Assembly (NCBI GenBank): GCA_964016885.1
Contig: OZ024743.1
Coordinates: 286,688,001 to 286,752,000, forward strand
Direction: 5' to 3'
DNA: 64,000 bases
Source of the DNA: Eledone cirrhosa
Taxonomy: Eukaryota
The notes under the pieces were generated by a model, which saw nothing but the letters and a program-made list of their open reading frames with translations, did not search any database and had not been told where the DNA came from. Below are positions 587 through 64,000 of this stretch, one piece after another. Both the position numbers and the translations under genes were made by a program. Position 1 is the stretch's first letter; every line of letters begins with the position of its first letter.

Positions 587-620
<34 letters not shown>

Positions 621-628
<8 letters not shown>

Positions 629-3493: not shown

Positions 3494-3547
3494 AGATTCT
3501 TTTTTGTTTTTGTACCTGTATTCATTTCGCAGCGAAATTGTATGTAT

Positions 3548-21941: not shown

Positions 21942-21964
21942 GTGATGACGATTATGTATATATA

Positions 21965-27798: not shown

Positions 27799-28269
27799 AG
27801 TAAAGAGGCCGAGAGTTCTGCTGTGATATATTATATATTCCAATCTCCACCACCTTTATTTTAACAACAGCTTCACTATTTCACATTTTTTATATCACAG
27901 CATCTATCCATCTATCTATCAATCTATCTATCTGTCAGCCTCTCTCTATTATTGTGAAGGACTTCCTGTCTTGATCTTTTAATCTGGGCTTATTATGTTT
28001 TCGCCTTTTCTTTCTTTTGTATTTTACTTGACAGTAAAGAGGCCGAGAGTTCTGCTGTGATATATTATATATTCCAATCTCCACCACCTTTATTTTAACA
28101 ACAGCTTCACTATTTCACATTTTTTATATCACAGCATCTATCCATCTATCTATCAATCTATCTATCTGTCAGCCTCTCTCTATTATTGTGAAGGACTTCC
28201 TGTCTTGATCTTTTAATCTGGGCTTATTATGTTTTCGCCTTTTCTTTCTTTTGTATTTTACTTGACAGT
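27799..28269. repeat. Perfect 234-bp tandem duplication
   Basis: Unit starts agtaaagaggcc at 27799 and 28033; AGT microhomology at the junction. Confidence 0.92.
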
Positions 28270-31348: not shown

Positions 31349-31583
31349 TTAATCTGTTAATGGGTTTTCTGTAAAATCTTTTGATTTTGATTTCGAAGTA
31401 ACTGTATGTTTGCCGCCGTTAGGAGTACTGTCTCGGCTTGAATAATCAACTTGTTCAGTTAAGGTGTACCATTGAGCAAGAGGTTTGCGAGCATTCTCCA
31501 GCATCTCATACCAATGATCTCTTCCAACACCTGGAAAATGGGGACCAATGCCACAGCATCCCATTACTTCATTACTTCCAATT
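31349..31583 (-). CDS. Syt9: Synaptotagmin (Syt9-like) last coding exon
   Basis: ctttag|A ATT GGA...; encodes [41 protein letters not shown]...NPLTD-stop. Has the typical C2B C-terminal HW..ML...RKP.AQW motif. Confidence 0.93.
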
Positions 31584-32281: not shown

Positions 32282-32453
32282 CTGTCATAGTCAACAACCT
32301 TGATGATCAAACCAATCTCCTCAATATGTTCCTGGGGTACATCAAACACGATTGCTTCATTGTAAACAGGTTTCAGCGTATTTCTCTTTACACTAGTCTT
32401 TCGCTTGCGTATTCGTTTGCCTTGACACATCAAGGCTACTTTGACATAGGGAT
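32282..32453 (-). CDS. Syt9: Synaptotagmin (Syt9-like) internal C2B exon
   Basis: tattcag|AT CCC TAT...GAC AG|gtactg; 172 bp encoding (D)[56 protein letters not shown](R). Contains the polybasic patch and the DYD Ca2+ ligands; phases match both neighbouring exons. Confidence 0.95.
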
Positions 32454-43507: not shown

Positions 43508-43628
43508 CTGAGGAGCCAGTGATATCCATTGCTTTCAAGTTCCGTGCTTTGATGATGGTAACTGTGAGGCGTCCTGCTGTGGGTAAGTAACACAATGACA
43601 TCATCAGTTCACCCAAATCAGCTTTTTC
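43508..43628 (-). CDS. Syt9: Synaptotagmin (Syt9-like, Syt3/5/6/9/10 group) exon, start of C2B domain
   Basis: Minus strand tttcag|GAA...TCAG|gtttt. The 121 bp are 40 codons plus 1 nt, encoding [40 protein letters not shown]. The phase-1 end joins G+AT (Asp) of the next exon. Not called in the ORF track. Confidence 0.93.
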
Positions 43629-44465
43629 CTGAAATATGGCGGAAACCTTAAAGATGTTTATATCTATTGTTCATTATGTAACCATGTCCCCACCAACAGC
43701 AAAAGAACAAACATGATAGTGTTGAAATGATGGTGATGGTGATGGTGATGGTGATGGTGATGATGACGATGCAGACATATGGAACCCCCATAGTTTTCAA
43801 CAATGAACATTCAGTTGTATAACTTGCGAATTAACATTTAAGTGGGTGAGTATTCCAAATACATGTGCACTCTTAACATAATTCTCAGTCTGAATCAGCA
43901 TGTCACAATATGTAATGAGGTTAAACTTTTGATACACAGGCAGGTACAATTCCTTTGATAGGTTTCCATACAATTGTTGTTTAGCTAATGTTACTTGCAA
44001 TGGTTGGGTCAACCCAAGGCTATGGCAAAGATTGTTACCCAAGCATCCAATGTGGTAGGATCAAATCCAGGATTTATGATTTCGTCACCCATTTCTTAAC
44101 CACTCAGCCCTGCCTACATTCACCGACATACTACAAAAGGTACACTAAATGGGCAAAATGACCATCTCTAGAATATGCTAATTCACACAGATATTTTCAA
44201 AGACTATCAAAAACCCAAAATGTCTCCTAAATGGTGTATCAATTCCAATGGATGACAATATATCTGAAAGAAATGGAGAACCAACCCAAATATAATGAGC
44301 CAGATGATAAAAAGGCTCCCAGTCCACACTGTAAATGTGGTTGGTGTTAGGAAGGGCTCGAACTGTAAAAAACCTGCCAGAGACACTTCCCAACCATTCC
44401 CGCATAATATGGAACAAAACCATCTAACCCATGCTAGCATGGAAGTTAAACGATGAAGATGATGA

Positions 44466-44501
<36 letters not shown>

Positions 44502-44541
44502 GATATTAAACAAATGGAAACTATATTTATAAAACCATATT

Positions 44542-44607
44542 TATTTTGTTATATATATTTCTGGGATATCATATTAAAAATATGTTATGCCTTCCTCAGA
44601 CAAAATA
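44542..44607 (-). ncRNA. Type I hammerhead ribozyme in the PLE 3' end
   Basis: Minus strand: TATTTTGT-CTGAGGA-[hairpin aggcataacatat...atatgatatccca]-GAAA-TATATATA-ACAAAATA. 8-bp stem I, AUA cleavage triplet, palindromic stem III. Confidence 0.85.
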
Positions 44608-45842
44608 CAATACATAAGCTGTTTTATAAATAATTAGTGACATACCTTTTGAGAATGCAACTTCCTTTTAAAAAAGTTGATTTGGTAGTGAAACTGTTAT
44701 GATAGTTATATAGAAAGAAAACGAAGATGAGAAGAAGAAGGTGAAGAGATGTATGTAAATAAAAAAGAAGAAGATGAAGAGATGTATGCAAAGAGAAAAG
44801 AGATGTATGTAAAGAAAAACAACGGAGCGAGATAGAGAGACAAGGATAGAGAGAAATACATTGATGGTGAAAAAAAAAACCTAGTAGGCTGCATTTTGAC
44901 AGATGATCATCGTATATGTGAGAGGTTAAGGGAAGGGATACAGTTAGATTAGTGTATAGGAGAAAAAGAAAGAAAGATGATATATTTAAAATATATTAAA
45001 AATATATTATGTCTCATCCATTTGAATTATCAATTTTTATGAATTAGGCACTATAATGTAAATACCAGTATTCATGAATGAGACACATATCTATAATGTG
45101 TAAAAAAAATGACCACATGCTCAGTTTAAAAATTCTTAGGTCTATAAGCAAAATCTGAGACAAAACTTCAAACATAAGTATATATGCATTCTCGTGAAAA
45201 ATGAGAAAAGAGAAGGTTATCTCAAATTCAAGTTGATAAATAAAGATGCACATGTGAACCTAGGTGATACGCTGCACTGATTCTTATATTTCATGAAAAA
45301 CTTCAATGTGTCAGAAAAGAAAAACTTCAATGCGTTAGAAGAGATTCCACCCTACATACATTTACATACATATATACATATATATATAGACACAAAACAT
45401 ATAAGATATACATTAACATCTAAAACAATCATCGATCAAGCATAGAGTAGACAACAGATATCAATATTAAAATTAAAAACGCCAAGACTATCTTCGTCAC
45501 TCCACAGAGTATCTAGGGACGCAAGAGAACATAGTATGCCACGCATATCGGTCATAGAATCAGAGTCAAAGCAAACAGGACCAAAATTGCTCACCAAGCC
45601 TTATTTATCAGAAATCATTCAAAACTTATTCTACAAATGCTCTTATATCATTATAGAAGTTTATCCAGCTTAAAAATTTATTCAAAAGATTGGGACCAAG
45701 GCCAAATTTAGGGTAGTTTATTTAATCTCATTAATTATATATTCATGCGGAAAGGTTTTAAAAAAAATTAAAGGAATCAAAAGATTTATCGCCAAGTATC
45801 ACAAATAGTCAAATATCTTAAGTAAATATACTACATTTTATA

Positions 45843-48068
45843 CTACATTTTAAATTTATATTTATATTTAAATGTTGAGTTCAATCTATGTCTGCAACAA
45901 CTGAATAAATTGGTTCGTAAATTAAGGGAATTTTTAGATTTTAATATAAAGAATATCTCCTCCGCGCAGAGGTCACAAGTCTCAGAAGAGGAATTAAAAG
46001 GAATCCCTTTTGAGACTATATTCCAAACCATCGAATATCCAACTTTATCATGCTTAAGTTGCCAGAGAAGCCCTGACAGCGATGTTGATGATTTTTTATT
46101 TGGATCCGTGAAAGAATTTTTGTGATTATTATAGTGAAGTTTAAATTCTGTCGAGGTGGAACCAACATAATTAAAAGAATTTAAATCAGTTCTAACATTA
46201 CAGTTGTATATTATATTTTTAACTAAGCAATTGTTATTTAGCGGACATTTAGATCTATCTCTACAGTTACAGTTTTTTAGTTGAATATTGTTTAGGCTAT
46301 TTTCGGTATTTTGGCTAGGTTTTAGATTCCTATTATTTATTCTATTAATATTTTGTGCTAAGTTTTTGGTGGACGAGTACATTAATTTTATAGTATGTCT
46401 ATTAAAAATTGAGTGATACTTATGTGTTCTAGGGAAGCGTTTGTCAAGAGCATTAAAAAATAGTTTAGCGATGTGGGTTTTAATGTTTAGTGAGAAAGGG
46501 GGGGCAAACCATATTATATTTCTAGTTCTATTTCTTTTCTGATTTTTGAAATTATTGTAGTGCTTTCTATTATAGTTGTTAAAGTTGTTACTGTAATTAA
46601 AATTGTTGTTATTTTGGTTAGTTTGTCTATTATCGATGTACATAATTTTATCACTATATCCTGCTCTAGCTAAAGCATCATTATAATATTGGGCTTTTTC
46701 GTCAAAAATATTTTTATTGGAAGAGATTCTAGAGATACGTTTTTGAACAGAGTTTACTATAGTATTTTTGACAGATCTGGGGTGATTGGAGCTAAAATTT
46801 ACATAATTTAAGTTTTCATTTAACTTGTGAAATGGATAGTGAAGACATGTGTTGAGATTAAATGTTACGTCTAGGAAATTGACTATTCTATGGTTATTCT
46901 CAATTTCTATTTTTAGATTAAGGTAATTAAAAAATTGTATAATTTGTTTTCTTTTCTTATTTAGTTCAGAGTTATTATTTTCAATAAGTAAAAGCATGTC
47001 ATCTCTATATAAACCTCCGGTAACACCGGGTATTTTCCTATGCAGCGAATTAATTATAAATAGGCCCACAAGGTCCGTTACCTGAGCTGAGTCTGATGAT
47101 CCCATAGTAATGTCAAAATTATTATCTCTATCTGCTCTAGTCCATAGTTGGTTATTAAATTCTATCAAAGTTTTCCTTGCCGATAATATAATGTGCATTT
47201 CATTGCTAGTTAGGTCTGTATGCTTGAATGCGTAATTTAGTGCCTTATTAAGTAGATTAGGGGTAATGGATGAATAGTAGTTAGCAATATCTAGTTGAAT
47301 AAATTTATTATTATTGTTATATTTAATTTCATTAAACCACTCAATGACCTCCCCAGTACCCTTCCACAAGGTCAAGCCAGGTAAACAATTCAAGTCCTTA
47401 ATTTGCTGTATCACTCTGTCTAGAATGTTCTTGCTAAGTTTACCCAGGTCAGATTTTGATGGTGCAATCAACCTGACTGGCAAGTCATTTTCAAAATTTC
47501 TCTTGTGATCTTTCATATTGATCTTGGGTTTCCTAGGCACGAAAGGTTGTGTTTTGTTCTCAATTTCCAACTCATGCATTATACATGATGCCTCAACATT
47601 CATTTTCTCAAGTTCAGCCTTATCTGCTACCTTGTACTTTTTCCTTAGTTCTTTCAGTATGAGGCCATTATACATGTCTTTTTCCACTCCATAGAGGTTG
47701 TTGGTTTTGTCCGATTTCACCAAGATCTTCTCTGTTCTCTCTAAGCTCGCAATGTTATCCTTAATGCTTTTCAGATATTCCTGGCCATTGAAGCTTCTCT
47801 TGAATCTGACTCCTTGTATGATAGAAATTATATCGTTTTCAAAATCATTCAAAAGTTTGTTGGGGGGTGGATTTTTTTTAGATTTGAAGACTCTGTCTAG
47901 GTCTGAGGCATTTTCATTTACGTTAGATTTAGATTTATCAAAGTGGAATGCACGCCACCTGACTCTCCTTATAAAGGAGTCTGATTTATCTATTAGTTGT
48001 TTAATAAAGTCCTTGTTTCTAGGTAGAGGTATGTCTTTTAGAGAAGAAGAGATCTTAAAGAATTCCAT
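45843..48068 (-). CDS. PLE reverse transcriptase with C-terminal GIY-YIG endonuclease (741 aa, no stops)
   Basis: RT motifs KSDKTNN (DKG-like), QLDIANYYSSI, ITMGSSDSAQ, GLYRDD, VNFLDVTF and SNHP. Linker CNC-x5-CPLxxxC; endonuclease IIY...YVGST, CDLC and CCRH. Confidence 0.93.
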   Translation of the reverse strand: MEFFKISSSLKDIPLPRNKDFIKQLIDKSDSFIRRVRWRAFHFDKSKSNVNENASDLDRVFKSKKNPPPNKLLNDFENDIISIIQGVRFKRSFNGQEYLKSIKDNIASLERTEKILVKSDKTNNLYGVEKDMYNGLILKELRKKYKVADKAELEKMNVEASCIMHELEIENKTQPFVPRKPKINMKDHKRNFENDLPVRLIAPSKSDLGKLSKNILDRVIQQIKDLNCLPGLTLWKGTGEVIEWFNEIKYNNNNKFIQLDIANYYSSITPNLLNKALNYAFKHTDLTSNEMHIILSARKTLIEFNNQLWTRADRDNNFDITMGSSDSAQVTDLVGLFIINSLHRKIPGVTGGLYRDDMLLLIENNNSELNKKRKQIIQFFNYLNLKIEIENNHRIVNFLDVTFNLNTCLHYPFHKLNENLNYVNFSSNHPRSVKNTIVNSVQKRISRISSNKNIFDEKAQYYNDALARAGYSDKIMYIDNRQTNQNNNNFNYSNNFNNYNRKHYNNFKNQKRNRTRNIIWFAPPFSLNIKTHIAKLFFNALDKRFPRTHKYHSIFNRHTIKLMYSSTKNLAQNINRINNRNLKPSQNTENSLNNIQLKNCNCRDRSKCPLNNNCLVKNIIYNCNVRTDLNSFNYVGSTSTEFKLHYNNHKNSFTDPNKKSSTSLSGLLWQLKHDKVGYSMVWNIVSKGIPFNSSSETCDLCAEEIFFILKSKNSLNLRTNLFSCCRHRLNSTFKYKYKFKM

Positions 48069-48097
48069 TTTTTATATATATATATATATATTTATGT

Positions 48098-50049
48098 ATG
48101 CCCTAGATAGGAGTAACTATAGAGGCATTAAATTAATCAACCAGGTCATGAAGGTCACGGAAAAAATAATAGCGCAACTAATCAGAGAGAGAATTGGTCT
48201 AGATGAAATGCAGTTCGGGTTTGTGTCAGGCAAAAGTACCACAGACGCTCTTTTCATTGTACGACAACTACAGGAGAAGTACCTAGCTAAAAGTAAACCC
48301 CTATACTTAGCTTTTGTCGACTTGGAGAAAGCCTTCGACAGAGTCTCCCGTTCCATTATCTGGTGGGCTCTTAGAAAACTAGGTGTTGACGAATGGCTTG
48401 TGAGAGCTATACAAGCCATGTATAAAGAAACAGTCAGCAAGGTTAGAATTAACAATGAATATAGTGAAGAGTTTAGCGTAAAAGTTGGTGTCCATCAGGG
48501 CTCTGTTCTTAGCCCCCTACTATTTATTATTGCCGTTCAGGCTATAACAGAGGAGTTCAAGACCGGCTGCCCATGGGAACTCCTATACGCAGATGACCTA
48601 ACACTCATAGCTGAATCAATGGCCGAGCTAGAGAAGAAATTCCAAACATGGAAGCACGGCCTAGAATCAAAAGGCCTTAAAATTAACCTGGCTAAGACTA
48701 AAGTTCTAGTTTGTAAGAAAGAAAATAAGGTAGCGGTCCCTTCCGGGAAGTGGCCATGCTCAGTGTGTAGGAAAGGCGTAGGTAGAAACTCCATTTTATG
48801 TCCCAAATGCAAAGTATGGGTGCATAAAAGATGTAGTGGGATCGCAGGTAAGCTAACTAAGAACATAGATTTTACATGTGGCCGGTGCTCTGGTGCAATA
48901 AGTAGCAGCAAGTGCCCACAGAATACTAGCTCTTTCAACTGCGCAGAGGGTTCTATAGAAATAGTGGACAGCTTCCGTTACCTGGGTGACAAAATCAGCA
49001 GTGGGGGAGGGTGCTCTGAAAGTACAGTAGCTAGAGTCAGAACTGGATGGAAAAAGTTCAGAGAGCTTATACCACTACTAGCCGCTAAAGTGTTCTCCCT
49101 AAAAATGAAAGGCAGGTTGTATGATGCCTGCATACGAACAGCAATGTTGCATGGCAGTGAGACCTGGGCATGGTGTGCAGAGGATATACGCAGACTAGAG
49201 AGGAACGAAGCTTGCATGCTCCGCTGGATGTGTAATAGTAATATACGTGAACGGCAAAGAATAAACGAACTAAGGAAAAAATTAGAAATAAGAGGGATCA
49301 GATGTTGTTTACTCGAGAGAAGGCTACGTTGGTATGGTCACGTGATGCGCATGAAAGACGATAGCTGTATAATAAAGTGCAGGGCAATAAAGATAGACGG
49401 TAGCCACGGAGTAGGCAGACCCAGAAAAACCTGGGACGAGCTGATAAATTCCGACCTCACACACTTACACCTCTCCAAGACAATGTCACTGGACCGAGAC
49501 CTTTGGCGGTACTCAGTAATAGAGAAGACCCGCCTTACCTAAATACAAAGTAAAACCTACTACAGTCAGTAGGCATCTCTAACAAAATACACCCCCGTCC
49601 CACTACCCCCACCCTATCCACACCGCCCCTTTCAATGTAAAGTTATGTTGGTGCCACAACATCCAGGCCGAAACAAATGAGATCGTGTAGGTGTCACGAC
49701 AAAAAAACACACAGTCCATGCTGTAATGTGGCCGTGTAGGCAACACGGTAAAAACCTCCCAGCCCCACACTGTAAATGTGGTTGGTGTTAGGAAGGGCAT
49801 CCAGCTGTAGAAAACCCGCCAGACAGTCCACGCTGTAATGTGGCCGTGTAGGCAACACAGTAAAAACCTCCCAGCCCCACACTGTAAATGTGGTTGGTGT
49901 TAGGAAGGGCATCCAGCTGTAGAAAACCCGCCAGACAGTCCTATGCGAGCAAGACAATCACTCTTGCCTCAAGTGGGAAAACCCCCGTCCAAACCCATGC
50001 AAGCGTGGAACACGGACGTTAAACGTTGATGATGATGATGATGATGATG
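48098..50049 (+). mobile_element. 5'-truncated RTE LINE (RT to 3' UTR, (GAT)n tail)
   Basis: Open frame from ALDRSNYRGIKL to the stop at 49542, highly similar to the 56588 copy. 112-bp tandem duplication in the 3' UTR at about 49711-49941. Confidence 0.92.
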
Positions 50050-50937
50050 TATGTATATACACATTTACAGTGAGTACTGGGTGCTTTTTGTCATGTTGCC
50101 ATCACGACCACTTTACAGTGTGTGTGTTAATTGCAGAATTAGTTCCATAATTATGGTGAACATGAATAGAAAATAGAGAATAGAAAATAGAAAATAGACG
50201 ACTGATTTGATTCAGGGATGGCCTGCGAATTCATTGTCATTGTAACAGCAAACCATCCCTGAATGTCGAATGTTGCACAAACACATCAATGGTAAGCATT
50301 ATAGGCTGGTAGGCATGATGGAGGGGATTGGGGCTGCTAGTTGGTGACAGGAATTCTACTGTCCTTAGAAAATACAATTCATTAATCACAACCAAGGATT
50401 CCACTGCCACAGATGTCATGGGGTATTAAACTCTGCGCCATTAGACATTGACCGTAAACCAGCATAGTGTGCCAATGGAAACTTAACAGGTTAAATTTCT
50501 ATAGAGGCATACAGACCTATATAAATTGTATAAAATAATAAAAAGTAATAAAAACAAAAATAAAAGTTATAAAGAGATATAAAAACGAATTATAAAGGTT
50601 ACAAGATTGCAAGAATTATGAGAATTATAAGATTAAAAATTTTTATAAAAATTAAAAAGTTTACAAAAAATTATAAAAATTATATGTGAATTTTATGTTA
50701 AATAAATTAAGAAATTGAATTAGAAAGAATAAAACAAAGGTGGTTAATTTTAATCCTAATGTAAAAGATTCTCTAAAGTAAATTACTGAACGATAAAGGG
50801 GTAGTCAAAACAATTTTGTGCGTATATATATTTATATATATATATGTGTTTGCATTGAGAACGAAAATGTCTGATGTATCAGAAGAAAATAGGTTACTAG
50901 TGACTAAGTATATTAAAATAATGAAGGGAGGGTAACA

Positions 50938-51370
50938 TTCTTCTTCTTCATTCTGAGAGGGTCGTGGGGGAAGAGTCCTCAAACACTCCTTCCAGCGGGT
51001 CTTGTCAGAAGCAACCCTCTCCGACTGATCTGGCTGGATCTCGAAGTAAGACCAGCCAAGTTCATGGATATTTTCCAGTAATCTAGCTTGATGTCTACAC
51101 CTGGGTTTCCTGTTGGTTGGTTTTGTCCAGCGATTCTTTCCTGAGCCATTCTAACCACATGTCCATAGTATCAGAGCTGCGATCTCCCAATTCAAAGAAG
51201 TAGCAGCTCTACTTGGAGTGACTCTCTGATCTCAGAGCTATGCACTCTATCAAGTAACATCATTCCAAAGACCCTTTGGAGGAATGTCATTTCAGTGACT
51301 TGTATTCGCGATCGTATTTTCAGTCATTACCCAAGTTTCATGACCATAGGTAAGGGTTGGCACAAATACT
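50938..51370 (-). mobile_element. RTE family 2 3' end
   Basis: Aligns along its length with 37340-37790 (gagggtc.tg.ggg.agagtc.tcaaacactccttccag...). Confidence 0.75.
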
Positions 51371-52149
51371 GGGGAAAATTAATTAATTAATCAATCAATT
51401 AATTCCAAGCACTCAAGGTATAGAACCAAAGTTTGTTTGACCTGTGCATTATTCAGAGGACTACCTGCGGTCGGTTGATAGCTCAATGCACATCACACAA
51501 CGCTCACAATACTGATGAAAATATTATAATGATAGGTAACATATTACATATTCTTATTTACCTCCATGGCATGGTAAATTAAATAGTAGAGGTAACTAAT
51601 TATATATAGCTATACATAGGTAGAAAATGCAGTTGCATAGTTGAAGGTATAACTGAAATTAATGTTAAATTAAATTAAATCTGCAGCTATTATTGAATAG
51701 AGGCATTGTTGAATATTATATTGTATATGGAATGTACTATGTAGTATAATATAGGATGTAATCTAATGCAATTAATAATGTGAGGTATGAAAATATAAAA
51801 ATATAAAGAAATAGTAATGAAATAATAAAATAATATAATTATATATTGATATAAATATTAACAAAAGATATAAGAATAAGATGTTGGTGTAGTTAAAATA
51901 CTAGACTAAAAGTTCAAAACAACAATTTAAAGTGAAAAATTGAAATAGAATAACAATTTTTCACTTTAACTGATATATAAAGAAAATTTCATGACTTACA
52001 CATCACACAAAGTATATCACTGAATACATATACAGTATACTTTTAATTCAATAGAAAAATGCAGAAACAAAACAAAACAAGATATTTGGAAGACATTTGG
52101 TTGGGCAGTAAAAATATATTCAAATTAACACAACAATAATAGTAATGAT

Positions 52150-52630
52150 GATATTATTATTATTTTTTTTAATACTTGATGTCTCATTCACTGATGTTAT
52201 TCAACTGGAATAATTGCCTAATGAATATCAAACTGCTACCTGCAGCTTCAGATATTCAGGATGTATTGGAGGGCCCTTGCTGTTCCAAGCAGGCATGCCT
52301 TTTGAAGTGCTGATGGTCTTTATCCAGCCTTGGAAACTCTTCGAGATAGTACCTAGTGCTCCCATGATGATGAGGACGACCTTGATCTCATGACAGTTCC
52401 AAATTCTTTTCAGTTCCCATTTCATGTCCTGGTACTGACTCATTTTCCCCTCCCCTTTTCCTGTACTCTTGTGTTGAAGGGGCAAGCTACATCTATAATC
52501 AAGCACAATCTTTTTTTTTTGTCGAAAACCACCAGGTCAGGCTTATTGTGTTCTAATTCTTTAATAGTTTGTATTCTGAAATCCTATAACACCTTCACCC
52601 AGTCGTTTTCCATCACCTCAGCGTGAGGTA
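52150..52630 (-). mobile_element. R4/Dong-type (RLE) LINE 3' end
   Basis: ENDWVKVL*DFRIQT...HNKPDLVV...IDVACP...YQDMKWELKRIW...IMGALG. Confidence 0.8.
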
Positions 52631-52634
52631 AATC

Positions 52635-52870
<236 letters not shown>

Positions 52871-52879
52871 GTGGCCACT

Positions 52880-54720
52880 TCACGAAAATAACATGGAACT
52901 TAGACGATATTCTTCCAAATATCCAAAAGAGAAGCAAAATATAGAGAGAACGATGATTAAACAATGACTATATTGAAGTGTTATATACATTCTATATAGC
53001 CACACTGCACCCCCAAAACACAAACATCATAAAAGAAACATATTAGTTATGGAGGAAAGGGATCAAAGATGTAAGGAAAAATGTATGCGCAAAGGAGAGG
53101 CTATAATCTCCAAAATCTAAATAGACAAACTTATATACAGAATACACACTGAAAATAAAACAAAATATCTAACCAAGCAAAATAACGAGCTACAAACGAA
53201 AATAAAACAACAAAACATACACTTCCCAAAACACATAAATCCTTACAAAAGATAGAAAGGAACACAACATAAGCAATCACATATACAATAGGAGAGAACT
53301 GAAACCAAAGTGAAATTACTATTATGCAAGAAACAGACAGTATTGTAGAGCAAATAAAAAACACACAGAGAAACAAAAAACCAAAATGCAAGAAGGCAAA
53401 GACCACAGAAACACCACAAAATGCACAACCACAATAAAAATAGACAGTCAGTTCAACACCTAACAACAAACACACACTATGACAAATCCAACATAATCAA
53501 TATTGAGGTAGAATTTACTAAAGCAATAAAGAAAATGAAAGAGAATTTCACAAAATCAATAATCAAGAATCAGCATAAATACCTCTCCAAACTACAGAGG
53601 AATAAACACTTCTATGAAAGAATATATAATAATAATAAAGTTCTCCAAGAATTGATGCTCATCATAACAGACTTCCTGAATATCAAGAGATTGAATAACT
53701 TGATCTGTTCAGTCGTGGTAACGATATCAAGAGAAACTACACTTGAGCCTAACAGGGAAAATAACCCAGTCGAATTATAAACCCTAAAATGGAAAGAAAA
53801 TATAACATGCTACAAAGGAAAGATCTATCCTTACTATGTGAACAAGAAAGAAAGAAATCCAAAAGAAAAAAAAAAAAAAAGGCCCAAATAATAAAAGGAC
53901 ACCTTAAAAACAAAAGAAAAACTCAAGCAGAGTATAACAGCAAAAATATACACCATAAAACATTAAGAAAGGCACAAATTTGTCTACCAAAAAAAACCCC
54001 AAAGAATTTGAGGTGAATATCAATCGATTCTACAGGAACATCAACAAAGGAAAATATATAACTATAGAAAATATACCAGTAATAGACAGAGCAGAGAAAT
54101 TTAACACAACACAAAAATCACAATGGCTAAGAAGGAAATCACTCACATATTGAGAACTACTAGAAACTGAAAAACATCAGGAATGGACATGGCCCCCAAC
54201 TTCTGGCTGAAACACCCACCAATACCCATGGATACGTGACAACAACATTTAATGAAATGCTAAGCAGACAAGAAACAACACCTAACTGAATGCTGAAGGG
54301 GGAAACCACTCTAATCCCATTAAATAAAACCTACAAAACACTAAAAAAATTATAGATCAATATTATGCCTACCAACAACATACAGAATCCTCACATCAAC
54401 AACATGCAACTAGTTTGTTATACGTTTGGAAAACAGCAATGTGCTACCAGAAGAATGAAAAGGGTGCTGGAAAGGGAGGTATGGCTGTAAAAAGAGGTAA
54501 AAAAAAAACCTCAGTATAGCCTGGATTGACTCCCAGAAGGCTTTTGATAGCATTCCACACTCATAGATGATGGAGTCAATCCACAAAAATAAAGTAGCCC
54601 CAATTCTGCTCAGATATTATAGTCATGTTATGACAAAATGGAAAACCACCAAAGCCCTAAAAAATAGGGAAAAAGCCATAAAAACGAACCCTACAACCAT
54701 AAAAAAAGGAATTTTCCCTT
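52880..54720 (+). mobile_element. R4/Dong-type LINE 5' region and RT, decayed
   Basis: A-rich decayed ORF with GETTLIP, NYRSILCLPTTYRILTS and LSIAWIDSQKAFDSIPHS. Confidence 0.72.
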
Positions 54721-55544
54721 ATGTATATAATAAAAGTGATTGCGTTTTTACACTTCCTATATTTACAAGGAAAGTGTAGCAATGCAAGAAAATGCTAAAT
54801 AATAATCTAACTTGTATAAACAAGTACAATTGAAGAAGACAGAGCATTTCAATCTTCTGGGAGGGGTCATGAAAACTGAACAGATAGATACCTAAGCCAA
54901 GGTACATACCAAATCAGTTCTGTTCTATAATAGACAACTCTGTTGAGAGATTTAATTGGTGAAGTAGGCACACACTTTTGTTTTCAATTATTGCCAATTG
55001 ATATACTGAAGCACCCAACAAAGAACAACTTATGATGCATTTGTTGGGTTGACTAATTCTTTGTGCGTAATGAAGAATTTCTGTGCTTTTATGGTGTATC
55101 AATCTTCAACATTTTCAGTTAATATAGATGCACTCACAGGAATGGCACTATAAAGAAGTATAGTAGTATTTTTAAATGGAGCAAACAACATGTTTAGGAA
55201 AAAAATCTGAAGAATTTCAAAGGTAGGTTTTAGAAACACATAGTTTTTCCACCATCAAAACAGATTTATAAATCTTTAAACTGTAGTTTAAATAAATTAT
55301 TATATTCAACTATTTTCTGAAGCAGTGGTTACTTTATTTAGTTAGTGAATACCTTTGTTCCTACAAACAAATACATCCTAAATATAGTACACTATGTAAA
55401 GTGGTTGGTGATAGAAAAGCCATCCTCTTAATATTTATTTGTATTAGCCTGTTTTGCTCAAAGGTTTTCACACCATCCTATAGTTTTGCATGCAAGGTAG
55501 AATGATCGACTGTGAGAATTTTCAGGTTGTGGGGATCAATTCCT

Positions 55545-55576
<32 letters not shown>

Positions 55577-56009
55577 ATATATATATACATACATATTTAT
55601 ATATACATATACTCTTTTTCTACTATATAAGGATTAATCTAATATATATCTTAATTGCACTGTATCGTTTGCTATGTTGTTTTCCATTTACTGTTCACAC
55701 ACATATATACATACATATATGCATGGATTTGCTTTTAATCATAAGTTGAACACTATTTTTATATTAGTTTGATTTGTATGTCTTTTGCATCGCTTCTTGG
55801 TTATTCACATAACTAATCTTGTTGAGTGCTTTATCATGTATTCAGTTCCTTGAATTCCTGCCAATGTCTTTTCTTCTCAATGCCTGATTTTAACCAGCCT
55901 CCTCTTTATAAGGTCACATGCTGCTGCTGCTGTCTGACACTGCTATCATTACATGTCAGCTAGAATTTACCAGTTATTCAGATACATTTCCTGTTGGATT
56001 TTAAGCTGA

Positions 56010-56139
56010 ATACCTACTGACGAAATGTAGCTCAGGTTATGTAATATATGGCAATATTACATGACTTCTGTGAGTAGCACTTGCTGATACAACTATTACA
56101 CACGGACTGTAATGTTGAAACTGCTGGCAGTTTGGGTGT
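56010..56139 (+). ncRNA. Type I hammerhead ribozyme with long stem II insertion
   Basis: ATACCTA-CTGACGA-[about 93 nt]-GAAA-CTGC tg GCAGTT-TGGGTGT. GUU triplet; lies in a microsatellite-flanked non-coding module at about 55610-56300. Confidence 0.7.
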
Positions 56140-56334
56140 ATTTGGTAAACCCACTCAAAGCCATTTTATTTACTTATTAACAAAATCTGTCCCGTCTGAA
56201 TTATAAATTGGTATTTACAACATACAATTCTTATAAAATAATTGGTTTAGTAAATAAGGGTTGGAGCTATAAAGCTTCTATCCAATTAGTTTTGTTAAAC
56301 TATATATATAGAGAGATATAGATATAGACAGATA

Positions 56335-56534
56335 TCAAAATAGAACCAGTTTAAAAATAGTTAAACCATTACTCAACAGAGTACTCGATACTTAGGGTAG
56401 TAGAGTATGGCTATATTATAAAGAGTCAGGACCTGATATCTGAGATCTTGCCATTTCAACAGCTAATTCCAGACTGAAACTAACTGTTGAAATAGCAAAA
56501 GCTCAGCCATTGGGTCCTGACTCTTTATAATATA
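56335..56534. mobile_element. Decayed PLE-type fold-back module
   Basis: 22-bp perfect arms at 56412-56433 and 56513-56534, motif GTATCGAGTAC on the minus strand at 56381-56391, microsatellite flanks. Confidence 0.55.
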
Positions 56535-56587
56535 TAGATACATACATATATATACACACATATATATAAATGTATATGTATATATGT

Positions 56588-59500
56588 ATCATCATCATCA
56601 TTATCATCATCGTTTAACGTCCATCTTCCACGCTTGCATGGGTTTGGACGGGAGTTTTCCCACTTGAGGCAAGATTTGTTGTCCTGCTCGTATAGGACTG
56701 TTTGGTGGGTTTTCTATGGTTGGATGCCCTTCTTAACACCAACCACGTTTACAGTGTGGACTGGGAGGTTTTTACCGTGTTACCTACATGGCCACATTAC
56801 AGCGCCAAAGATCTCAGTCCAGTGACATTGTCTTGGAGAGGTGTAAGTGTGTGAGGTCGGAATTTATCAAGTCGTCCCAGGTTTTTCTGGGTCTGCCTAC
56901 TCCGTGGCTACCATCTATTTTTATTGCCCTGCACTTTTTTATACAGCTGTCGTTTTCCATGTGCATCACGTGACCATACCAACGTAGCCTTCTGTCGAGT
57001 AAACAACATCTGATCCCTCTTATTTCTAATTTTTCCCTTAGTTCATTTATGCTTTGCCGTTCACGTATATTACTATTACACATCCAGCGGAGCATGCAAG
57101 CTTCGTTCCTCTCCAGTCTGCGTATATCCTCTGCACACAATGCCCAGGTCTCACTGCCATGTAACATTGCTGTTCGTATGCAGGCATTATACAGCCTGCC
57201 TTTCATTTTTAGAGAGAACCCTTTAGCGGCTAGTAGTGGTATAAGCTCTCTGAACTTTTTCCATCCAGTTCTGACTCTAGCTACTGTACTTTCAGAGCAC
57301 CCTCCACCACTGCTGATTTTGTCACCCAAGTAACGGAAGCTGTCCACTATTTCTATAGAACCATCTGTGCAATGGAATGAGCTAGTATTCTGTGGGCACT
57401 TGCTGCTACTTATTGCACCAGAGCACCGGCCACATATAAAATCTATATTCTTAGTTAGCTTACCTGTGATCCCACTACATCTTTTATGCACCCATACTTT
57501 GCATTTGGGACATAAAATGGAGTTTCTGACTACTCCTTTCCTACACACTGAGCATGGCCATTTCCCGGATGGGACCGGTGCCCTATTTTCCTTCCTACAA
57601 ACTAGAACTTTAGTCTTAGACAGGTTAATTTTAAGGCCTTTTGATTCTAGGCCATGCTTCCATGTTTGGAATTTCTTCTCTAGTTCAGCCATTGATTCAG
57701 CTATGAGCGTTAGATCATCTGCGTATAGGAGTTCCCATGGGCAGCCGGTCTTGAACTCCACTGTTATAGCCTGAAGGGCAATAATAAATAGTAGGGGGCT
57801 AAGAAAGGAGCCCTGATGAACATCAACTTTTACGCTAAACTCTTCACTATATTCATTGTTAATTCTAACCTTGCTGACTGTTTCTTTATACATGGCTTGT
57901 ATAGCTCTCATAAGCCATTCATCAACACCTAGTTTTCTAAGAGCCCACCAGATAATGGAACGGGGGACTCTGTCAAAGGCTTTCTCCAAGTCGACAAAAG
58001 CTAAGTATAGGGGTTTACCTTTAGCTAGGTACTTCTCCTGTAGTTGTCGTACAATGAAAAGAGCGTCTGTGGTACTTTTACCTGACACAAACCCGAACTG
58101 CATTTCATCTAGATCAATTCGCTCTCTGATTAGTTGCGCTATTACTTTTTCCGTGACCTTCATGACCTGGTCGATTAATTTAATGCCTCTATAGTTACCC
58201 CTATCTAGGGCATCTCCTTTACCCTTGTAGAAGTTAATGATGATGTTGCTACGCCAGTCCTTCGGAACAACCCCATTCTGTACGACTTGGTTTACTATCC
58301 GGGTGACCATAGTGTGTCCCACCGTTCCAGAAGCTTTCAGCATTTCAGCAACTATTTCCAAAGGCCCAGCCGCCTTACCCGTCTTCATATCTTTGATTGC
58401 CTTACTTATTATACTACCTTCGACTAACACTGCTGGTCCCTCTATTGGATCGATGTGGGGGAGACTGTCTTTCTCTCATTTATTCTCCTCATTTAGTAGC
58501 CTTTGGTAGTGACACTTCCAAGCTACCTTCTTATCAGTGTCATTGATGGCAAGTACACCATCATCATTAAGGACACACTTCTCCTCGACAATATCACGGC
58601 TTTCCTTGACACATTGCCTAGCAATCCTGAACACCTCACGTTTTTGGTCCTCGCGTTGTAGAACATGCTTGAACTTTCTTTCCTCTGCTTTCCTTCTTGC
58701 AAAGTACACTTGTCTCCTAGCTTCCCTCCTGGCCACTTGATAGTCTTCTCTACTTCCCCCATCCCGCCATACTTTCCAAGCCTGCTTTTTGGCCTTAATT
58801 GACCCCTCCACCTTACTGTTCCACCACCACGTTACTCTCCTCCTGCCTATAGGCCTGCTCCAGCCACAGACTTCATCTGCCGCCATCAACAGGTTTGCTT
58901 TCAGGAATTCCCACTGTTCTTCTATATTGTACGACTCTAATTGCTCTTCCTTACTGTCAAAAGCATCAAGTATTATGCTTTAAAATTTATTACTGGCTGT
59001 GGGGTCCTTTAACTTCCATATTTTTCTCCAGAGGATAGTCCTCTTCTGTTGTCGAGTACGTCTCGTCCTGACTATGAGGTCGCTAATTATGAGTCTATGT
59101 TGAGAGGTGCATTCTTCATGGGGGAGGGATTTAGTGTTTACAACAGACACTCTGTCACGTCTTCTGGTAAGGATATAATCTACCTGGCTGGTATATTCCC
59201 CTGATCTGTAGGTGATCAAGTGATTGTCTCGTTTTTTAAAGTTAGTGTTACAGATAGTTAGGTTATTTGCGTCACAGAATTCCAGGATTCTGGAGCCTTC
59301 CTCATTTCTAGTACCAAACCCATAGCCTCCATGGATTCCATCATAGCCGTCACAATGTTGTCCAACGTGACCATTTAGGTCGCGAGCAATAATTATATAG
59401 TCACTTCGGTTTTTTGGGAGGTAGTTAGCATCAGTGTCTCATAGAATCTGTCTTTTATAGCGCCAGGCAGTCCGGATTGGGGTGCGTACGCATATATTAC

Positions 59501-59940
59501 TGTCACAGTAGTTCTATTTAGAACAAGTCTTATTTTAATTATTCTGTCGTTCACTCTATTTACGTCTATTATCTTATCCACCCATTTTTCTGCTAACATG
59601 ATTCCTACCCCACCCAGCCCATTGTCATTTCCCACCCAGAAAAGTTTATAGCATTGTTTTTTACCCACAATGAATCTAGCAGACCCACCCCTCCACCTGG
59701 TCTCTTGGATACAGCAAACATCAACCTCCTTACGTTCAAGCATTTCTACAACCTCGTTAGAGCGACCTTTTAAGGTGCCTACATTCATGGTACCAACTCT
59801 GAAGTTTTGGATTGCGTTTGGTGGGTGGGAACGGTGGGGCGCGGGGAGGGGTGAGGCGGATGGGGTTGGGGTTATGTTGGCCATCCGCGGCCGAAACAAA
59901 GAGGAGGAGTCCTTGCCCTTTCGTCCGGCAGCATGAGGTG
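56588..59940 (-). mobile_element. Near full-length RTE-clade LINE (APE-RT-PHD-like finger), inactivated
   Basis: APE motifs GTMNVGTL, IQETRW, YAPQ, DLNGH, VDYIL, SQHRL; RT motifs NYRGIKL, FVDLEKAFD, HQGSFLSP, YADD. One frameshift near 59400, in-frame stops at 58980 and 58476, a 216-bp 3' deletion and an (ATG)n tail. Confidence 0.92.
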
Positions 59941-59965
59941 AATATATATTCATATATATATATAT

Positions 59966-61032
59966 ATCATCATCATCATCATCATCATCGTTTAACGTCC
60001 ATCTTCCACGCTTGCATGGGTTTGGACGGGAGGTTTCCCACTTGAGGCAAGATTTGTTGTCCTGCTATAGGACTGTCTGGCGGGTTTTCTACGGCTGGAT
60101 GCCCTTCCTAACACCAACCACGTTTACAGTGTGGACAGGGAGGTTTTTACCGTGTTACCTACACGGCCACATTACAGCGTGGACTGTGTGTTTTTTTGTC
60201 GTGACACCTACACGACCTCATTTGTTTCGGACTGGATGTTGTGGTACCAACATAACTTCACATTTAAGGGGGTGGTGTGGATGGGGTGGGGGTAGTGGGA
60301 CAGGGGGTGGGGGTGTATTTTGTTAGAGGTGCCTACTGACTGTAGGTTTCGCTTTGTACTTAGGCAAGGCGGGTCTTCTGTATGACTGTGTAGCGCCAAA
60401 GATCTCGGTCCAGTGACATTGTCTTGGAGAGGTGTAAGTGTGTGAGGTCGGAATTTATCAAGTCGTCCCAGGTTTTTCTGGGTCTGCTTACTCCGTGGCT
60501 ACCGTCTATTTTTATCGCCCTGCACGTTTTTATACAGCTGTCGTTTTCCATGTGCATCACGTGACCATACCAACGTAGTCTTCTGTCGAGTAAACAACAT
60601 CTGATCCCTCTTATTTCTAATTTTTCCCTTAGTTCATTTATGCTTTGCCGTTCACGTATATTACTATTACACATCCAGCGGAGCATGCAAGCTTCGTTCC
60701 TCTCCAGTCTGCGTATATCCTCTGCACACAATGCCCAGGTCTCACTGCCATGTAACATTACTGTTCGTATGCAGGCATCATACAGCCTGCCTTTCATTTT
60801 TAGAGAGAACCCTTTAGCGGCCAATAGTGGTATAAGCTCTCTGAACTTTTTCCATCCCGCTCTGACTCTAGCTACTGTACTTTCAGAGCACCCTCCCCCA
60901 CTGCTGATTTTGTCACCCAGGTAACGGAAGGTGTCCACTATTTCTATAGTACCATCTGTGCAATGGAATGAGCTAGTATTCTGTGGGCACTTGCTGCTAC
61001 TTATTGCACCAGAGCACCGGCCACATATAAAA

Positions 61033-61035
<3 letters not shown>
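59966..61035 (-). mobile_element. 5'-truncated RTE LINE, same family
   Basis: ORF 60360-60938 is near-identical to the C-terminus of the 56814-58430 ORF; complete 3' UTR and (ATG)n tail. Confidence 0.9.
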
Positions 61036-61068
<33 letters not shown>

Positions 61069-61185
61069 AGCGAAGAGATATTTAATTTGTTGGTAATTCA
61101 ATAAATATATTTGTAACAGATTCGAAGCACTCGACAAGTTTTCTGGAGTATAATATCAATGATATTAATAAATGGAAACCATATT

Positions 61186-61246
61186 TATTCTATTATATAT
61201 ATTTCAAGGGTACCAAAACTTTAGTACGCTCTCATCAGATAAAATA
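61186..61246 (-). ncRNA. Type I hammerhead ribozyme, same family as the PLE 3' end
   Basis: Minus strand: TATTTTAT-CTGATGA-GAGcGTACTAaagtttTGGTACcCTT-GAAA-TATATATA-ATAGAATA, overlapping AATAAA. Flank 61161-61205 aligns with 44502-44561. Confidence 0.85.
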
Positions 61247-61599
61247 CAAAATTTGTTTTATAAATAGTGACATACCCAGGAATCAGACCTTAACAGTTCA
61301 GGTTCCATTTGAATATCCACCTTTGGATGGCCGGCTTTGCCATATTCAAATAAAAAAAGTTGGCAGGTGAACTGTACTGATGAAGGGTAATGTCCAAAAA
61401 CATTAGTGTCTGCAGTTCTGTTTACATGCCAACACAAGAGCAAGAATGAGGGGCTCATTCTACTGACATGGCTTTAAAAAAGAGGCTGTTTGCATAATTG
61501 CAAACAAATCGAATATTGTTATTAATATTCTAAAAACTCAGATTACATTTATTGTATTCAGCCATGTAGAGCGAACATTTAAAAAAAAAAAGAAAGGCA

Positions 61600-62250
61600 T
61601 GTTCAATGGTCAAATATTGTGAAAAATGTTGAATTTGCCCAGGTATTTCAGGTATATCAACAAGAATATCAGCAATTCAATGAGGAGGGCCATTGACATT
61701 CAGCTCAATATTTTGGAGTCGACCATCAGACGTGTGGTGTACAAAGACATCAGGTACAAATCTCATGTTATGAAAAGAAGCAGTTCACATCTGATAAGAT
61801 TTGGAAGAACTATGTGATCTAGGTGAAGCATTTGCTGAATAAACACAAGCACCTTGAGGAGCTCAACATGCTCTGGTTCTTCTCAGATGAGTAGAACTTT
61901 GTTCACGATCAAAGGGTGGATAGGAGGAATGATAGATAGTTTAAGAAAAAGCTCAGACAAGGCCTTTCATTTTCCACCAACATTCTACTCTTTCTCACAC
62001 AGCTTGCATGCCCCAGGTGTGGAGGGCTGAACATTTTCATGATCATGATACCCCTAACATTTGGCCTTCTAACTCTCCTAATTTAACCCCTTTGGACTAC
62101 TATGTCTGGGGAATTGAAAGGGATACCACAATACTAAGGATTCACTGATGTCTGCTTTCGGGGACATTATGGCCAACATGAATAAAGATCACCTGAAAAA
62201 TGCATGTAGTTGAAGCGGTATTGAGGCTGATGGTGGTTTTATTAAATAAT
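61600..62250 (+). mobile_element. Tc1/mariner (maT/DD37D-like) transposase remnant
   Basis: STIRRVVYKDIRYKS, WFFSDE, WPSNSPNL.PLDYYVWG and EADGGFIK-stop across frames. Confidence 0.8.
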
Positions 62251-62467
62251 CTTTTGCTATGTGTATGCAAGAATATGTTGCTTTGTTTCTAATAAATATA
62301 ACTGTTTTCCTTAAATCAAAATTTTGTTTTCAAATAGCTGACACACACACTCACACCTTATATATATATATATATATATAAGGTCCATATAGACATATAC
62401 ATATGTCCCAAGGCTCTGATACCATCAACACTATAAACACAGAACTGGCATATCTAAGAACTGACTA

Positions 62468-62529
62468 ACTGTCTGATGAGGTCATAGCCATTCAATGGCT
62501 ATCATCGAAATATATATATATATAGCAGT
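62468..62529 (+). ncRNA. Type I hammerhead ribozyme with (TA)7 stem III in a solo pseudo-LTR-like module
   Basis: ACTGT-CTGATGA-GGTcATAGCCAttcaaTGGCTATcATC-GAAA-(TA)7-GCAGT, followed by AAATAAA. The module at about 62381-62574 is flanked by (TA)n on both sides. Confidence 0.85.
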
Positions 62530-63181
62530 AAATAAAGGATTATGAGTTTATGCAATTGACTCATGTTTCGTCACTATATATATATATGGGGGTGGTGTAG
62601 GTGTATGTGTGTGTGTGCAAATAAAATTTGATTTGAAACAGTAATGTAAATTAATGTGTATCAGCATGGACATATGTGTATATATAGATATAGAATTAAT
62701 CTACGTATAATATAAAAACCTATTTTCATAGATCTCCTTGTAAATCAAAATAAACTAAATTACATTTATTTCATAAGATAGATAAATAAATAAAAAATTT
62801 AGTGGGGAAAATTGAAATTGATAAATGCTAAATGTTAAAATGATACCAATATGTACTATGACTATGAAAACAAGGTCTATTATCTTCAACTACTTAGTAG
62901 GTGACTAAAGAGTTCGGAAGCTCAAATAATGTTGTATTGAGAAAATAATGGCTTCTTGCTGTTAGGAAAATTATAATCAATAGTAAAACATTATGTCAAT
63001 CAGTCATGCTATAATGATGATGTTAACAACAATAACAACAATAGCAACAATAACATCAACAACAACAACAGTAGCAACACTAAGATCAACAACAGTAACA
63101 ACAGTAGTAACAATAACAACAACAGGGACCAAAGCAGCAGCAATAACAACAGCAATAGCAGCATCAGTATCCTACACTAAT

Positions 63182-63990
63182 GATTTCTAGTATAGGCATA
63201 AGGCCAGCAATTTGGGGGAGGGGAAAGTCAATTAAATCGAACCTAGTGCATTACTGGTGCTTTATTTTATCAATCCCACAAGGATGTAAGGCAAAGCTAA
63301 CCTCGACAGGATTTGAGCTCAGCGCATAAAGGGTCTTAACTCTATGCTGAAAAGCATGGTGTCTGACACTCTACCGATCCTGCCAATCTACAGCAGTAAT
63401 AACAATAATGGTTTCTGGTTTAGGCACAAGGCCAGCAATTTGGGTGAGGGGAAAAGCTGATGAAATTAACCGCAGTACATGTTACTTTATGGATCGAGAA
63501 TGGAAGAATGAAAGGAAAATTGACTTCTGCAGGATTTAAATTCAGAACATAAGAAGCTGGAAAAAGTACCACAAAGCATTCCTCCAATGGTCCAATGATT
63601 ATGCCAAATCCTAACAAAAACAACAATAATACCAATAGCAAAAACATGAACAAAAATTCCAACATCTATTTTAACAATAACAACAAAACAACCATTAATA
63701 ATACCAAAAGTAATAATATTAATAAAAACAATCACAATAACAAGAGCAATACCAATATCAACATTGTCAACAACTACGGCAATAGCAACATATATATATT
63801 GATTTCTTATATAAACATAATACCACAAATTTAGAGAGTGGGAACAGTTAAATATATCTTTCCTAGCTCTTGACTTATCTTATCAACCCCTAGAAGGATG
63901 AATGGAAAAGTTGACAATAGTAGGATTTGATTTCAGATCATAAAGATCAGAAACTAGATACTGCATGGCATTTCTCTTCTGCTCTAACAA
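63182..63990 (-). mobile_element. Three diverged family A SINE copies among (AAC/AAT)n repeats
   Basis: Core and B-box remnants at about 63182-63388, 63410-63610 and 63825-63990. Confidence 0.75.
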
Positions 63991-64000
63991 CCAAGTCTTT

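What the first reader, a model, noticed from the sequence alone, without database searches (positions are those of the whole stretch)
44501..48073. Intact-ORF Penelope-like element in (TA)n inside a synaptotagmin intron, sense to the host gene
Seen: a 741-aa ORF without stops, all RT motifs, a CxC-x5-C linker, C-terminal GIY-YIG, 3' HHR with AATAAA, and (TA)n on both sides. The ATG lies only 5 nt from the TA tract, so there is no 5' pseudo-LTR. It starts about 0.9 kb upstream of a Syt exon on the same strand. Inferred: a young insertion resembling, from memory, the Hydra clade of C-terminal-EN PLEs; it could be expressed by host read-through in neurons.
Basis: partly seen in the sequence, partly recalled or inferred. 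Interest (0 to 1): 0.75.

Follow-up and report, generated by a model that had tools for sequence, protein, structure and literature searches.

The report
Likely-dead Hydra Penelope copy in synaptotagmin
This is one cut-short, likely disabled copy of a very common jumping gene, sitting in a synaptotagmin intron that is likely spliced out normally; the more interesting part is its family, whose mirror-image insertions nearly always pair two different fixed ends, likely because both are copied from two start sites on one RNA.

Summary
In detail: a 741-aa ORF (45843-48068, minus), telomerase-like RT fold, CxCx5C linker, C-terminal GIY-YIG motifs, 3' hammerhead, (TA)n flanks, inside the 35.2-kb C2A-C2B intron of a synaptotagmin, same strand. 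Motifs fit the Hydra clade of Penelope-like elements, already known from Octopus; this is another, longer family with thousands of ends in the genome (2,702 + 2,615 exact end matches). The missing 5' pLTR is a truncation of this copy: 172 copies keep the 5'UTR-ATG junction, 2 have (TA)n there. The copy is young (11 private changes in 3,573 nt) but likely dead: the GIY-YIG arginine is His (Arg in 52 of 53 homologues), and the 5'UTR is gone. An in-frame TAA two codons before the ATG blocks a Syt fusion, and one contig fits normal splicing, so neuronal read-through expression is unsupported. Family level: two fixed 3' ends 96 nt apart; 52 of 56 head-to-head insertions carry one of each; a repeated hairpin follows both. 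One-sided tails and two-site initiation are in print for other clades, and the scan noted such ends and hairpins before on other DNA of this genome. New member of a known kind; interest 0.25.

The parts
44501..48073 (-). Hydra-clade Penelope-like insertion, 5'-truncated 5 nt before the ATG, ending at fixed end A
   Evidence: matches family unit positions 135-3707 of 3707
45843..48068 (-). 741-aa ORF: N-terminal RWR/DKT region, telomerase-like RT, Asn-rich low-confidence linker (aa 487-511), CxCx5C, GIY-YIG endonuclease
46134..46136 (-). Codon 645: His where the family and homologues have the GIY-YIG catalytic Arg (CpG-type change)
   Evidence: Arg in 26 of 29 other locus rows and 52 of 53 homologues with a residue there
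44501..45842 (-). 1.34-kb 3' UTR, diverging faster than the ORF among copies
44542..44607 (-). Type I hammerhead motif; palindromic helix III; predicted cut after 44550, 49 nt before the element's end; AATAAA 44545-44540 overlaps helix I
44468..44500 (.). (TA)16.5 target tract at the 3' junction, behind the (GAT)n tail of another repeat
48074..48090 (.). (TA)n tract at the 5' junction; supplies an in-frame TAA two codons before the ATG
48100..50049 (+). 5'-truncated LINE (RT + PHD finger; RTE-like by recall) inserted in the same microsatellite, probable 7-bp target duplication 48093-48099 / 50050-50056
43508..43628 (-). Synaptotagmin exon, start of C2B (121 nt), 872 nt downstream of the element
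   Evidence: matched edge to edge by contig 1 of run X4
32282..32453 (-). Synaptotagmin C2B exon (172 nt)
31349..31583 (-). Last coding exon of the synaptotagmin
43629..64000 (-). Window part of the 35,151-nt C2A-C2B intron; the TM+C2A exon lies at G000:C4:286767600-286766780 (L032)
61124..61276 (-). 3' end of a related Hydra-like family: second sense hammerhead plus the same tail hairpin, in the same intron

Best explanation
This is a young, 5'-truncated and likely inactive copy of an abundant Hydra-clade Penelope-like retrotransposon family, lying in a (TA)n tract of the synaptotagmin C2A-C2B intron, from which it is likely removed by normal splicing. How it got there: shown - copies end at one of two fixed points, A (this copy) or B 96 nt further into the next unit's 5'UTR, and run into (TA)n; a similar small hairpin follows each point; inverted insertions carry one A and one B end; the pieces of one insertion are closest to each other. 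Inferred - the family's RT-endonuclease cut the (TA)n target and began reverse transcription inside a longer-than-unit RNA at site A, just 5' of the first hairpin, and stopped 134 nt short of a full unit, joining the TA tract. Shown - the copy lacks 5'UTR, pLTR and both hairpins and has His at the catalytic Arg. Inferred - it cannot template or cut for a new round; its single hammerhead with a palindromic helix III would cut poorly as a monomer; its effect on the host gene is small.
For: Family size: 67 matches from 37 scored of 7,327 candidates, many full length at 93-99%; 2,702 exact A ends and 2,615 exact B ends, controls 0. 22 of 29 other locus rows keep 5'UTR next to the ATG, 14 of them with a direct 5' partial tandem; 7 are cut inside the ORF. 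172 exact 5'UTR-ATG junctions against 2 (TA)n-ATG junctions; the second is an independent 90% copy. Hydra motifs as defined in PMC8557442 section 11 are present. R645H against Arg in 52 of 53 homologues; spacing Y634-R645-H649-E704-N716 follows Y17-R27-H31-E74-N87, whose loss abolishes cleavage (PMC2853131 passages). Intron and phases. A 441-nt contig of run X4 matches only 43508-43632, i.e. the exon plus the 4 nt it shares with the C2A exon end, as a spliced product would. Single minimal PLE hammerheads showed no detectable cleavage in vitro (PMC4209133 passages); internal two-site initiation and a dispensable hammerhead were shown in vitro for an anole PLE (PMC11167929).
Against: No RT tree with named Hydra references was built; membership rests on motifs and on reading the published sequences by eye. 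The unit (3,707 nt) is longer than listed Hydra families (1,080-3,045 nt). Arg-to-His was not assayed, and the single-domain fold failed (pLDDT 42), so the R27 equivalence is by alignment and spacing. His occurs in two other loci (L022/L030, L023), read here as recurrent CpG change, not tested. The kind of run X4 is not on record, only the matched part of its contig was shown, and whether sample S2 carries the insertion is unknown. The RT motifs are intact, so an RT-competent protein is possible if translated.
Confidence: 0.85

Rival explanations
1. Host read-through expresses the element in neurons: Syt pre-mRNA is cut or polyadenylated near 44540 and the ORF is translated, giving RT activity in the brain.
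For: Sense orientation inside a synaptotagmin transcription unit; open ORF with intact RT motifs; AATAAA and hammerhead at the 3' end; family-like contigs occur across the element in run X4, none diagnostic for this copy.
Against: In-frame TAA before the ATG: all 20 AG sites within 330 nt upstream give at most 80 open codons, none into the ORF; no 5'UTR or pLTR; AATAAA is common in this intron; contig evidence fits normal splicing; endonuclease Arg lost.
Confidence: 0.07
2. The insertion acts on the host gene in cis: the sense hammerhead (alone or paired with the second sense hammerhead at 61238 through their palindromic helix III) or the AATAAA cuts the pre-mRNA and lowers full-length Syt or yields a TM-C2A form.
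For: Two sense hammerheads with the same AU palindrome in one intron; the homodimer folds helix III in trans in silico; the site is 872 nt from the acceptor.
Against: The two motifs are 16.6 kb apart; metazoan minimal PLE hammerheads are weak even as dimers and the anole one needed protein; the first helix II pair is an A-A mismatch across the family; the free fold does not give the active conformation.
Confidence: 0.08
3. The copy is a full-length member of a pLTR-less element type whose natural 5' end is at the ATG.
For: [quoted passage not shown]
Against: 172 against 2 junction counts; 14 of 29 locus rows have a direct 5' tandem piece.
Confidence: 0.02

Closest known systems
Hydra clade of C-terminal EN+ Penelope-like elements, incl. 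Hydra-1_Obim of Octopus bimaculoides (Craig et al. 2021, PMC8557442; read: sections 11, 12, passages, supplement parts 1, 2, 7 and a search)
   Same: Single RT-GIY-YIG ORF, RW[KR], DKT, no GxKF/Y, CxCx5C linker, no CCHH, C-terminal CxxC and CxH, type I hammerhead, (TA)n targets.
   Different: A different family from Hydra-1_Obim (N-terminus and hammerhead differ by eye); unit 3,707 nt with a 1.34-kb 3' UTR against 2,507 nt; pLTR tandems and a 96-nt tail are common here; thousands of ends per genome.
Poseidon PAc of Anolis carolinensis (Frangieh et al. 2024, PMC11167929; read: parts 1-2 of 4 of the text)
   Same: Two fixed RT start points inside the RNA that define the tail; AT-rich targets; ends do not coincide with the hammerhead cut.
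   Different: Tail there is the 30-40 nt type and lies in the ORF start, with initiation in one AC-rich stem loop; here the two points are 96 nt apart in the 5'UTR, each followed by its own similar hairpin, with 2-6 nt TA microhomology to the target.
Penelope families with an optional tail on one inverted pLTR (Arkhipova et al. 2013, PMC3846280, passages; Craig 2021 Fig. 2 legend)
   Same: Partial tandems, head-to-head inversions, tail on one end only, Asn-rich linker.
   Different: Stated there qualitatively for 30-40 nt tails; here counted as 52 of 56 mixed pairs with no tail-tail pair.
Minimal PLE hammerheads (Cervera and de la Pena 2014, PMC4209133, passages)
   Same: Type I motif with short palindromic helix III, predicted dimer dependence.
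   Different: Longer, mismatched 13-pair helix II; this copy has only one motif of its own.

Membership tests
Penelope-like element, EN+ | Telomerase-related RT in a single ORF | tested here: met
   Best fold matches are TERTs; D260, D356, D357 conserved in homologues
Penelope-like element, EN+ | GIY-YIG endonuclease at the C terminus | tested here: met
   Y621, Y634, G636, H649, E704, N716 conserved; Pfam GIY-YIG in 3 of 64 members; beta-beta-alpha layout at 619-654 in the full model. No structural match for the domain alone (one search failed)
Penelope-like element, EN+ | Partial-tandem pLTRs, inversions and tail at family level | tested here: met
   absent from this copy by truncation
Hydra clade | RWK motif, DKT motif, no GxKF/Y | tested here: met
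   RWR (K in 34, R in 8 of 44 homologues with a residue), SDKT, no GxK[FY] match
Hydra clade | CxCX5C linker | tested here: met
   C600, C602, C608
Hydra clade | CCHH motif absent; CxxC and CxH beside the conserved E and N | tested here: met
   Only C623 between GIY and YIG, not conserved (A 33, C 15, G 4); C698/C701 and C725/H727 conserved
Hydra clade | Canonical hammerhead and (TA)n insertion | tested here: met
Hydra clade | Generally short (<3 kb) | tested here: not met
   Unit 3,707 nt; the paper gives this as a tendency, not a definition
Hydra clade | No insertion-in-fingers domain | not tested
   No explicit IFD comparison was made
Hydra clade | Monophyly with named Hydra RTs in a tree | not testable with these tools
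   Reference proteins could be read in the supplement (cut at 400 letters) but were not available to the alignment tools
Neptune / Nematis / Penelope-Poseidon | CCHH motif; CX2-5CxxC linker (Neptune, Nematis) | tested here: not met
   against definitions
Naiad / Chlamys | N-terminal endonuclease | tested here: not met
   RT spans aa about 54-487, endonuclease motifs 618-727
Autonomous (active) copy | Catalytic Y, R, E, N of GIY-YIG intact | tested here: not met
   His at 645
Autonomous (active) copy | 5'UTR / pLTR upstream of the ORF | tested here: not met
   Copy starts at unit position 135
Host-driven expressed element | RNA of this copy with its private bases | tested here: inconclusive
   No copy-diagnostic contig in the rows shown

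The most novel reading that the evidence does not exclude
Hydra-clade elements integrate by built-in twin priming: one RT-endonuclease dimer binds two similar hairpins 96 nt apart in the 5'UTR part of a single longer-than-unit RNA, and each subunit primes one strand of the cut (TA)n target just 5' of its hairpin. That would explain why head-to-head insertions carry exactly one A and one B end (52 of 56, none B/B), why A and B ends are equally frequent, and why the pieces of one insertion share a source; this copy would be a case where only site A left a product.
Probability: 0.4. Interest if true: 0.6.

Novelty: new member of a known kind. Interest (0 to 1): 0.25.

Why it matters
As a single insertion it matters little: one of thousands, likely inactive, in a large intron already full of repeats. 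If the read-through idea were true it would feed the debate on retrotransposon activity in cephalopod brains, but the anatomy argues against it. The family is more useful: it is recently active and abundant, has ORF-complete sisters with the catalytic Arg and a 5' tandem (L020, L029), and gives a counted rule (one A end plus one B end per inverted insertion) and two candidate RNA signals. These make the open question of how PLEs start reverse transcription and resolve both target strands directly testable in the existing in vitro assay, in a clade where no biochemistry turned up in my searches.

Tried and rejected
Rfam found no hammerhead family at E<=5 (5 chance hits); the motif was found by pattern. 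Pfam and PDB sequence searches do not recognise this protein. Folding the endonuclease alone without alignment failed (pLDDT 42) and was not searched. Run search: no RNA holder listed; this says nothing on expression. Presence/absence: laying X1, X4, X5, X6 and RAD runs X10-X12 plus X4 showed no joint across 44500-48074 among the rows shown; the TA tracts are skipped by the tool and the RAD runs barely cover the unique flanks, so polymorphism is undecided. Parts of the element without cover in X4 were not used. The joint 44561-48031 in X1 carries other letters and was read as coming from other copies. L051, the only other (TA)n-ATG junction, is not a daughter of this copy (90%, other flanks). 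AATAAA as the signal that sets the 3' end was rejected: copies end 39 or 135 nt further on, in (TA)n. The hammerhead cut as the 3' end was rejected: it lies 49 nt inside end A. A regular-expression count of the catalytic Arg mostly failed (60 of 63 no match) and was replaced by the alignment-column count. No earlier finding lay near this place. The search on synaptotagmin in cephalopod neurons was seen as a listing only and gave nothing on this paralogue. An RT tree with named clade references was not built.
Full report
Observation. The ORF is at 45843-48068 on the minus strand, 741 aa, between (TA)n tracts at 44468-44500 and 48074-48090. Pfam does not recognise it, so the domains were checked otherwise: 63 homologues at E<=1e-10 among 7,998 scored candidates, 27-44% identical, two named from Argonauta hians; an AlphaFold model on that alignment (pLDDT 91) whose best matches are telomerase RTs; and conserved GIY-YIG residues in the last 130 aa. 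A type I hammerhead lies at 44607-44542 with an 8-bp helix I, a mismatched 13-pair helix II and a palindromic helix III; 0 of 500 Markov controls gave one, and the region is nearly invariant in the 29 locus rows that reach through it. Rfam missed it.

Host gene. Three C2B exons lie downstream on the same strand (43628-43508, 32453-32282, 31583-31349). A transmembrane+C2A exon was found in 200 kb fetched upstream, at G000:C4:286767600-286766780; it ends in phase 0 and the 43628 exon starts in phase 0. Best PDB matches are synaptotagmin-3, then -1. The element is thus in a 35,151-nt intron, sense, its 3' end 872 nt before the acceptor. The host is probably a cephalopod (inference and from earlier notes; not tested).

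Clade. Section 11 of PMC8557442 defines Hydra by RWK, DKT, no GxKF/Y, CxCX5C, no CCHH, CxxC and CxH near the conserved E and N, canonical hammerheads and (TA)n targets. All are met, with RWR for RWK. The supplement lists Hydra-1_Obim from Octopus bimaculoides, 2,507 bp; its N-terminus and hammerhead differ by eye from this family. The unit here is longer (3,707 nt). No tree was built; supplement sequences are shown cut at 400 letters.

Family. The own-genome search gave 67 matches from 37 scored of 7,327 candidates; the 30 best became loci, chosen by likeness to this copy and so biased; L011/L014/L015 share flanks and L008/L019 and L022/L030 are two arms of one locus. 22 of the 29 other rows keep part or all of a 134-nt 5'UTR before the ATG, 14 with a direct 5' partial tandem; 7 are cut inside the ORF. 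Genome-wide, 172 exact 5'UTR-ATG junctions stand against 2 (TA)n-ATG junctions; the second is an independent copy at 90%. So the missing pLTR is a truncation. Complete ORFs from the first ATG: 3 of 30 loci (L001, L020, L029). This copy differs from its nearest sisters by 0.45-0.86% in the ORF and has 11 private substitutions in 3,573 nt; at the rate implied in PMC13282606 (distance 0.09 = 25 My, passage) that is under about 1 My, a rough upper bound.

The copy is likely inactive. Six residues differ from the majority; I36V and T563M are private, and R645H is shared only with L022/L030 and L023. Column 645 is Arg in 52 of 53 homologues with a residue (10 gaps, 1 Gln), and the spacing matches Y17-R27-H31-E74-N87 of I-BmoI, where loss of R27 abolishes cleavage (PMC2853131 passages). 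This is inference from alignment; nothing was assayed. The RT aspartates are intact.

Two fixed ends. Copies end at A, as here (2,702 exact matches running into TA), or read on (773 exact junctions into the 5'UTR) to B, 96 nt further (2,615 matches). Using the first 100 listed places of each search, cut to C1:1-136.6 Mb (100 A, 96 B), 56 head-to-head pairs lie within 8 kb: 52 A/B, 4 A/A, 0 B/B (binomial p 4e-12; 0.6 pairs expected by chance; 84 ends unpaired). Only exact matches were counted. In the loci, by my reading, 14 of 15 inverted insertions are A/B and one is B/B. Of 22 secondary pieces, 17 are closer to their own locus than to any other, 2 tie, 3 are not, so the pieces of one insertion share a source, though one RNA and several RNAs of one source are not told apart. 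I found the two ends and the pairing before the look-up; the hairpin and single-template leads came from earlier scan notes (unchecked AI notes). Tested here: a similar 5-bp hairpin follows A and B and also the related end at 61149; one of 5 pairs changes on both sides, folding is weak (-4.0 and -6.1 kcal/mol), five sequences only. In print: a tail on one end only (PMC8557442, PMC3846280 passages) and two internal RT start sites defining the tail in an anole PLE, with the hammerhead dispensable (PMC11167929). Searches showed no paper with this count or these hairpins; subscription papers and bioRxiv supplements were not visible, and of the 2026 retrozyme preprint I read part 1 of 5.

How it likely works. 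Inferred: the family protein cut the (TA)n tract behind another repeat's (GAT)n tail, primed at site A inside a longer-than-unit RNA and stopped 134 nt short of a full unit. A 5'-truncated LINE entered the same microsatellite on the other strand with a probable 7-bp duplication; the order is unknown. Lacking 5'UTR, pLTR and hairpins, the copy would not template a new round.

Read-through. The intron is transcribed whenever the host gene is, but translation has no evident route: TAA lies in frame two codons before the ATG and none of 20 upstream AG sites within 330 nt opens into the ORF. AATAAA occurs 19 times in 20.4 kb of this intron. Single minimal PLE hammerheads did not cleave in vitro (PMC4209133 passages). 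One 441-nt contig of run X4 (kind not on record) matches 43508-43632 without error, the exon plus the 4 nt shared with the C2A exon end, which fits normal splicing; its other letters were not shown and the carrier state of that sample is unknown. X4 also holds family-like contigs, none diagnostic for this copy.

Verdict. Interest 0.25. The end-pairing rule with twin hairpins is the part worth a bench test (probability 0.4, interest 0.6 if true).

Noticed in passing
window 61276-61124 (-): 3' end of a related Hydra-like family (68% over 145 nt) with its own sense hammerhead and the same tail hairpin, in the same intron.
   Followed up: partly
window 62473 (+): A third hammerhead-like motif, antisense to the host gene, with a longer TA run in helix III.
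   Followed up: no
window 48100-50049 (+), 56814-59953 (-), 60363-61097 (-), 11964-12416 (-): Several copies of a LINE with RT, PHD finger and APE endonuclease; the one beside the element has a probable 7-bp target duplication and a 112-nt duplication in its 3' UTR.
   Followed up: partly
window 18066-21943: 24-nt minisatellite, about 146 copies, giving long low-complexity open frames.
   Followed up: no
window 663-700: Near-perfect inverted repeat seen as matching hammerhead-like hits on both strands at 673 and 679.
   Followed up: no
window 7846-8829 (-): Broken ORFs that look by recall like a hAT-type transposase; Pfam gave only a weak Lin-15B hit.
   Followed up: no
window 52443-52587 (-): Short frame that looks by recall like the restriction-like endonuclease end of an R4/NeSL-type LINE, next to (GTT)46(TTC)33.
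   Followed up: no
L011, L014, L015 (G000:C10:26.07-26.21 Mb): One insertion of this family present three times with the same flanks, about 60-80 kb apart: a tandem segmental duplication after insertion.
   Followed up: no
L013:5082-5724: A copy whose 3' side runs 643 nt into the next unit, past both A and B, before (TA)n.
   Followed up: no
window 27799-28269: Exact 234-nt direct duplication.
   Followed up: no
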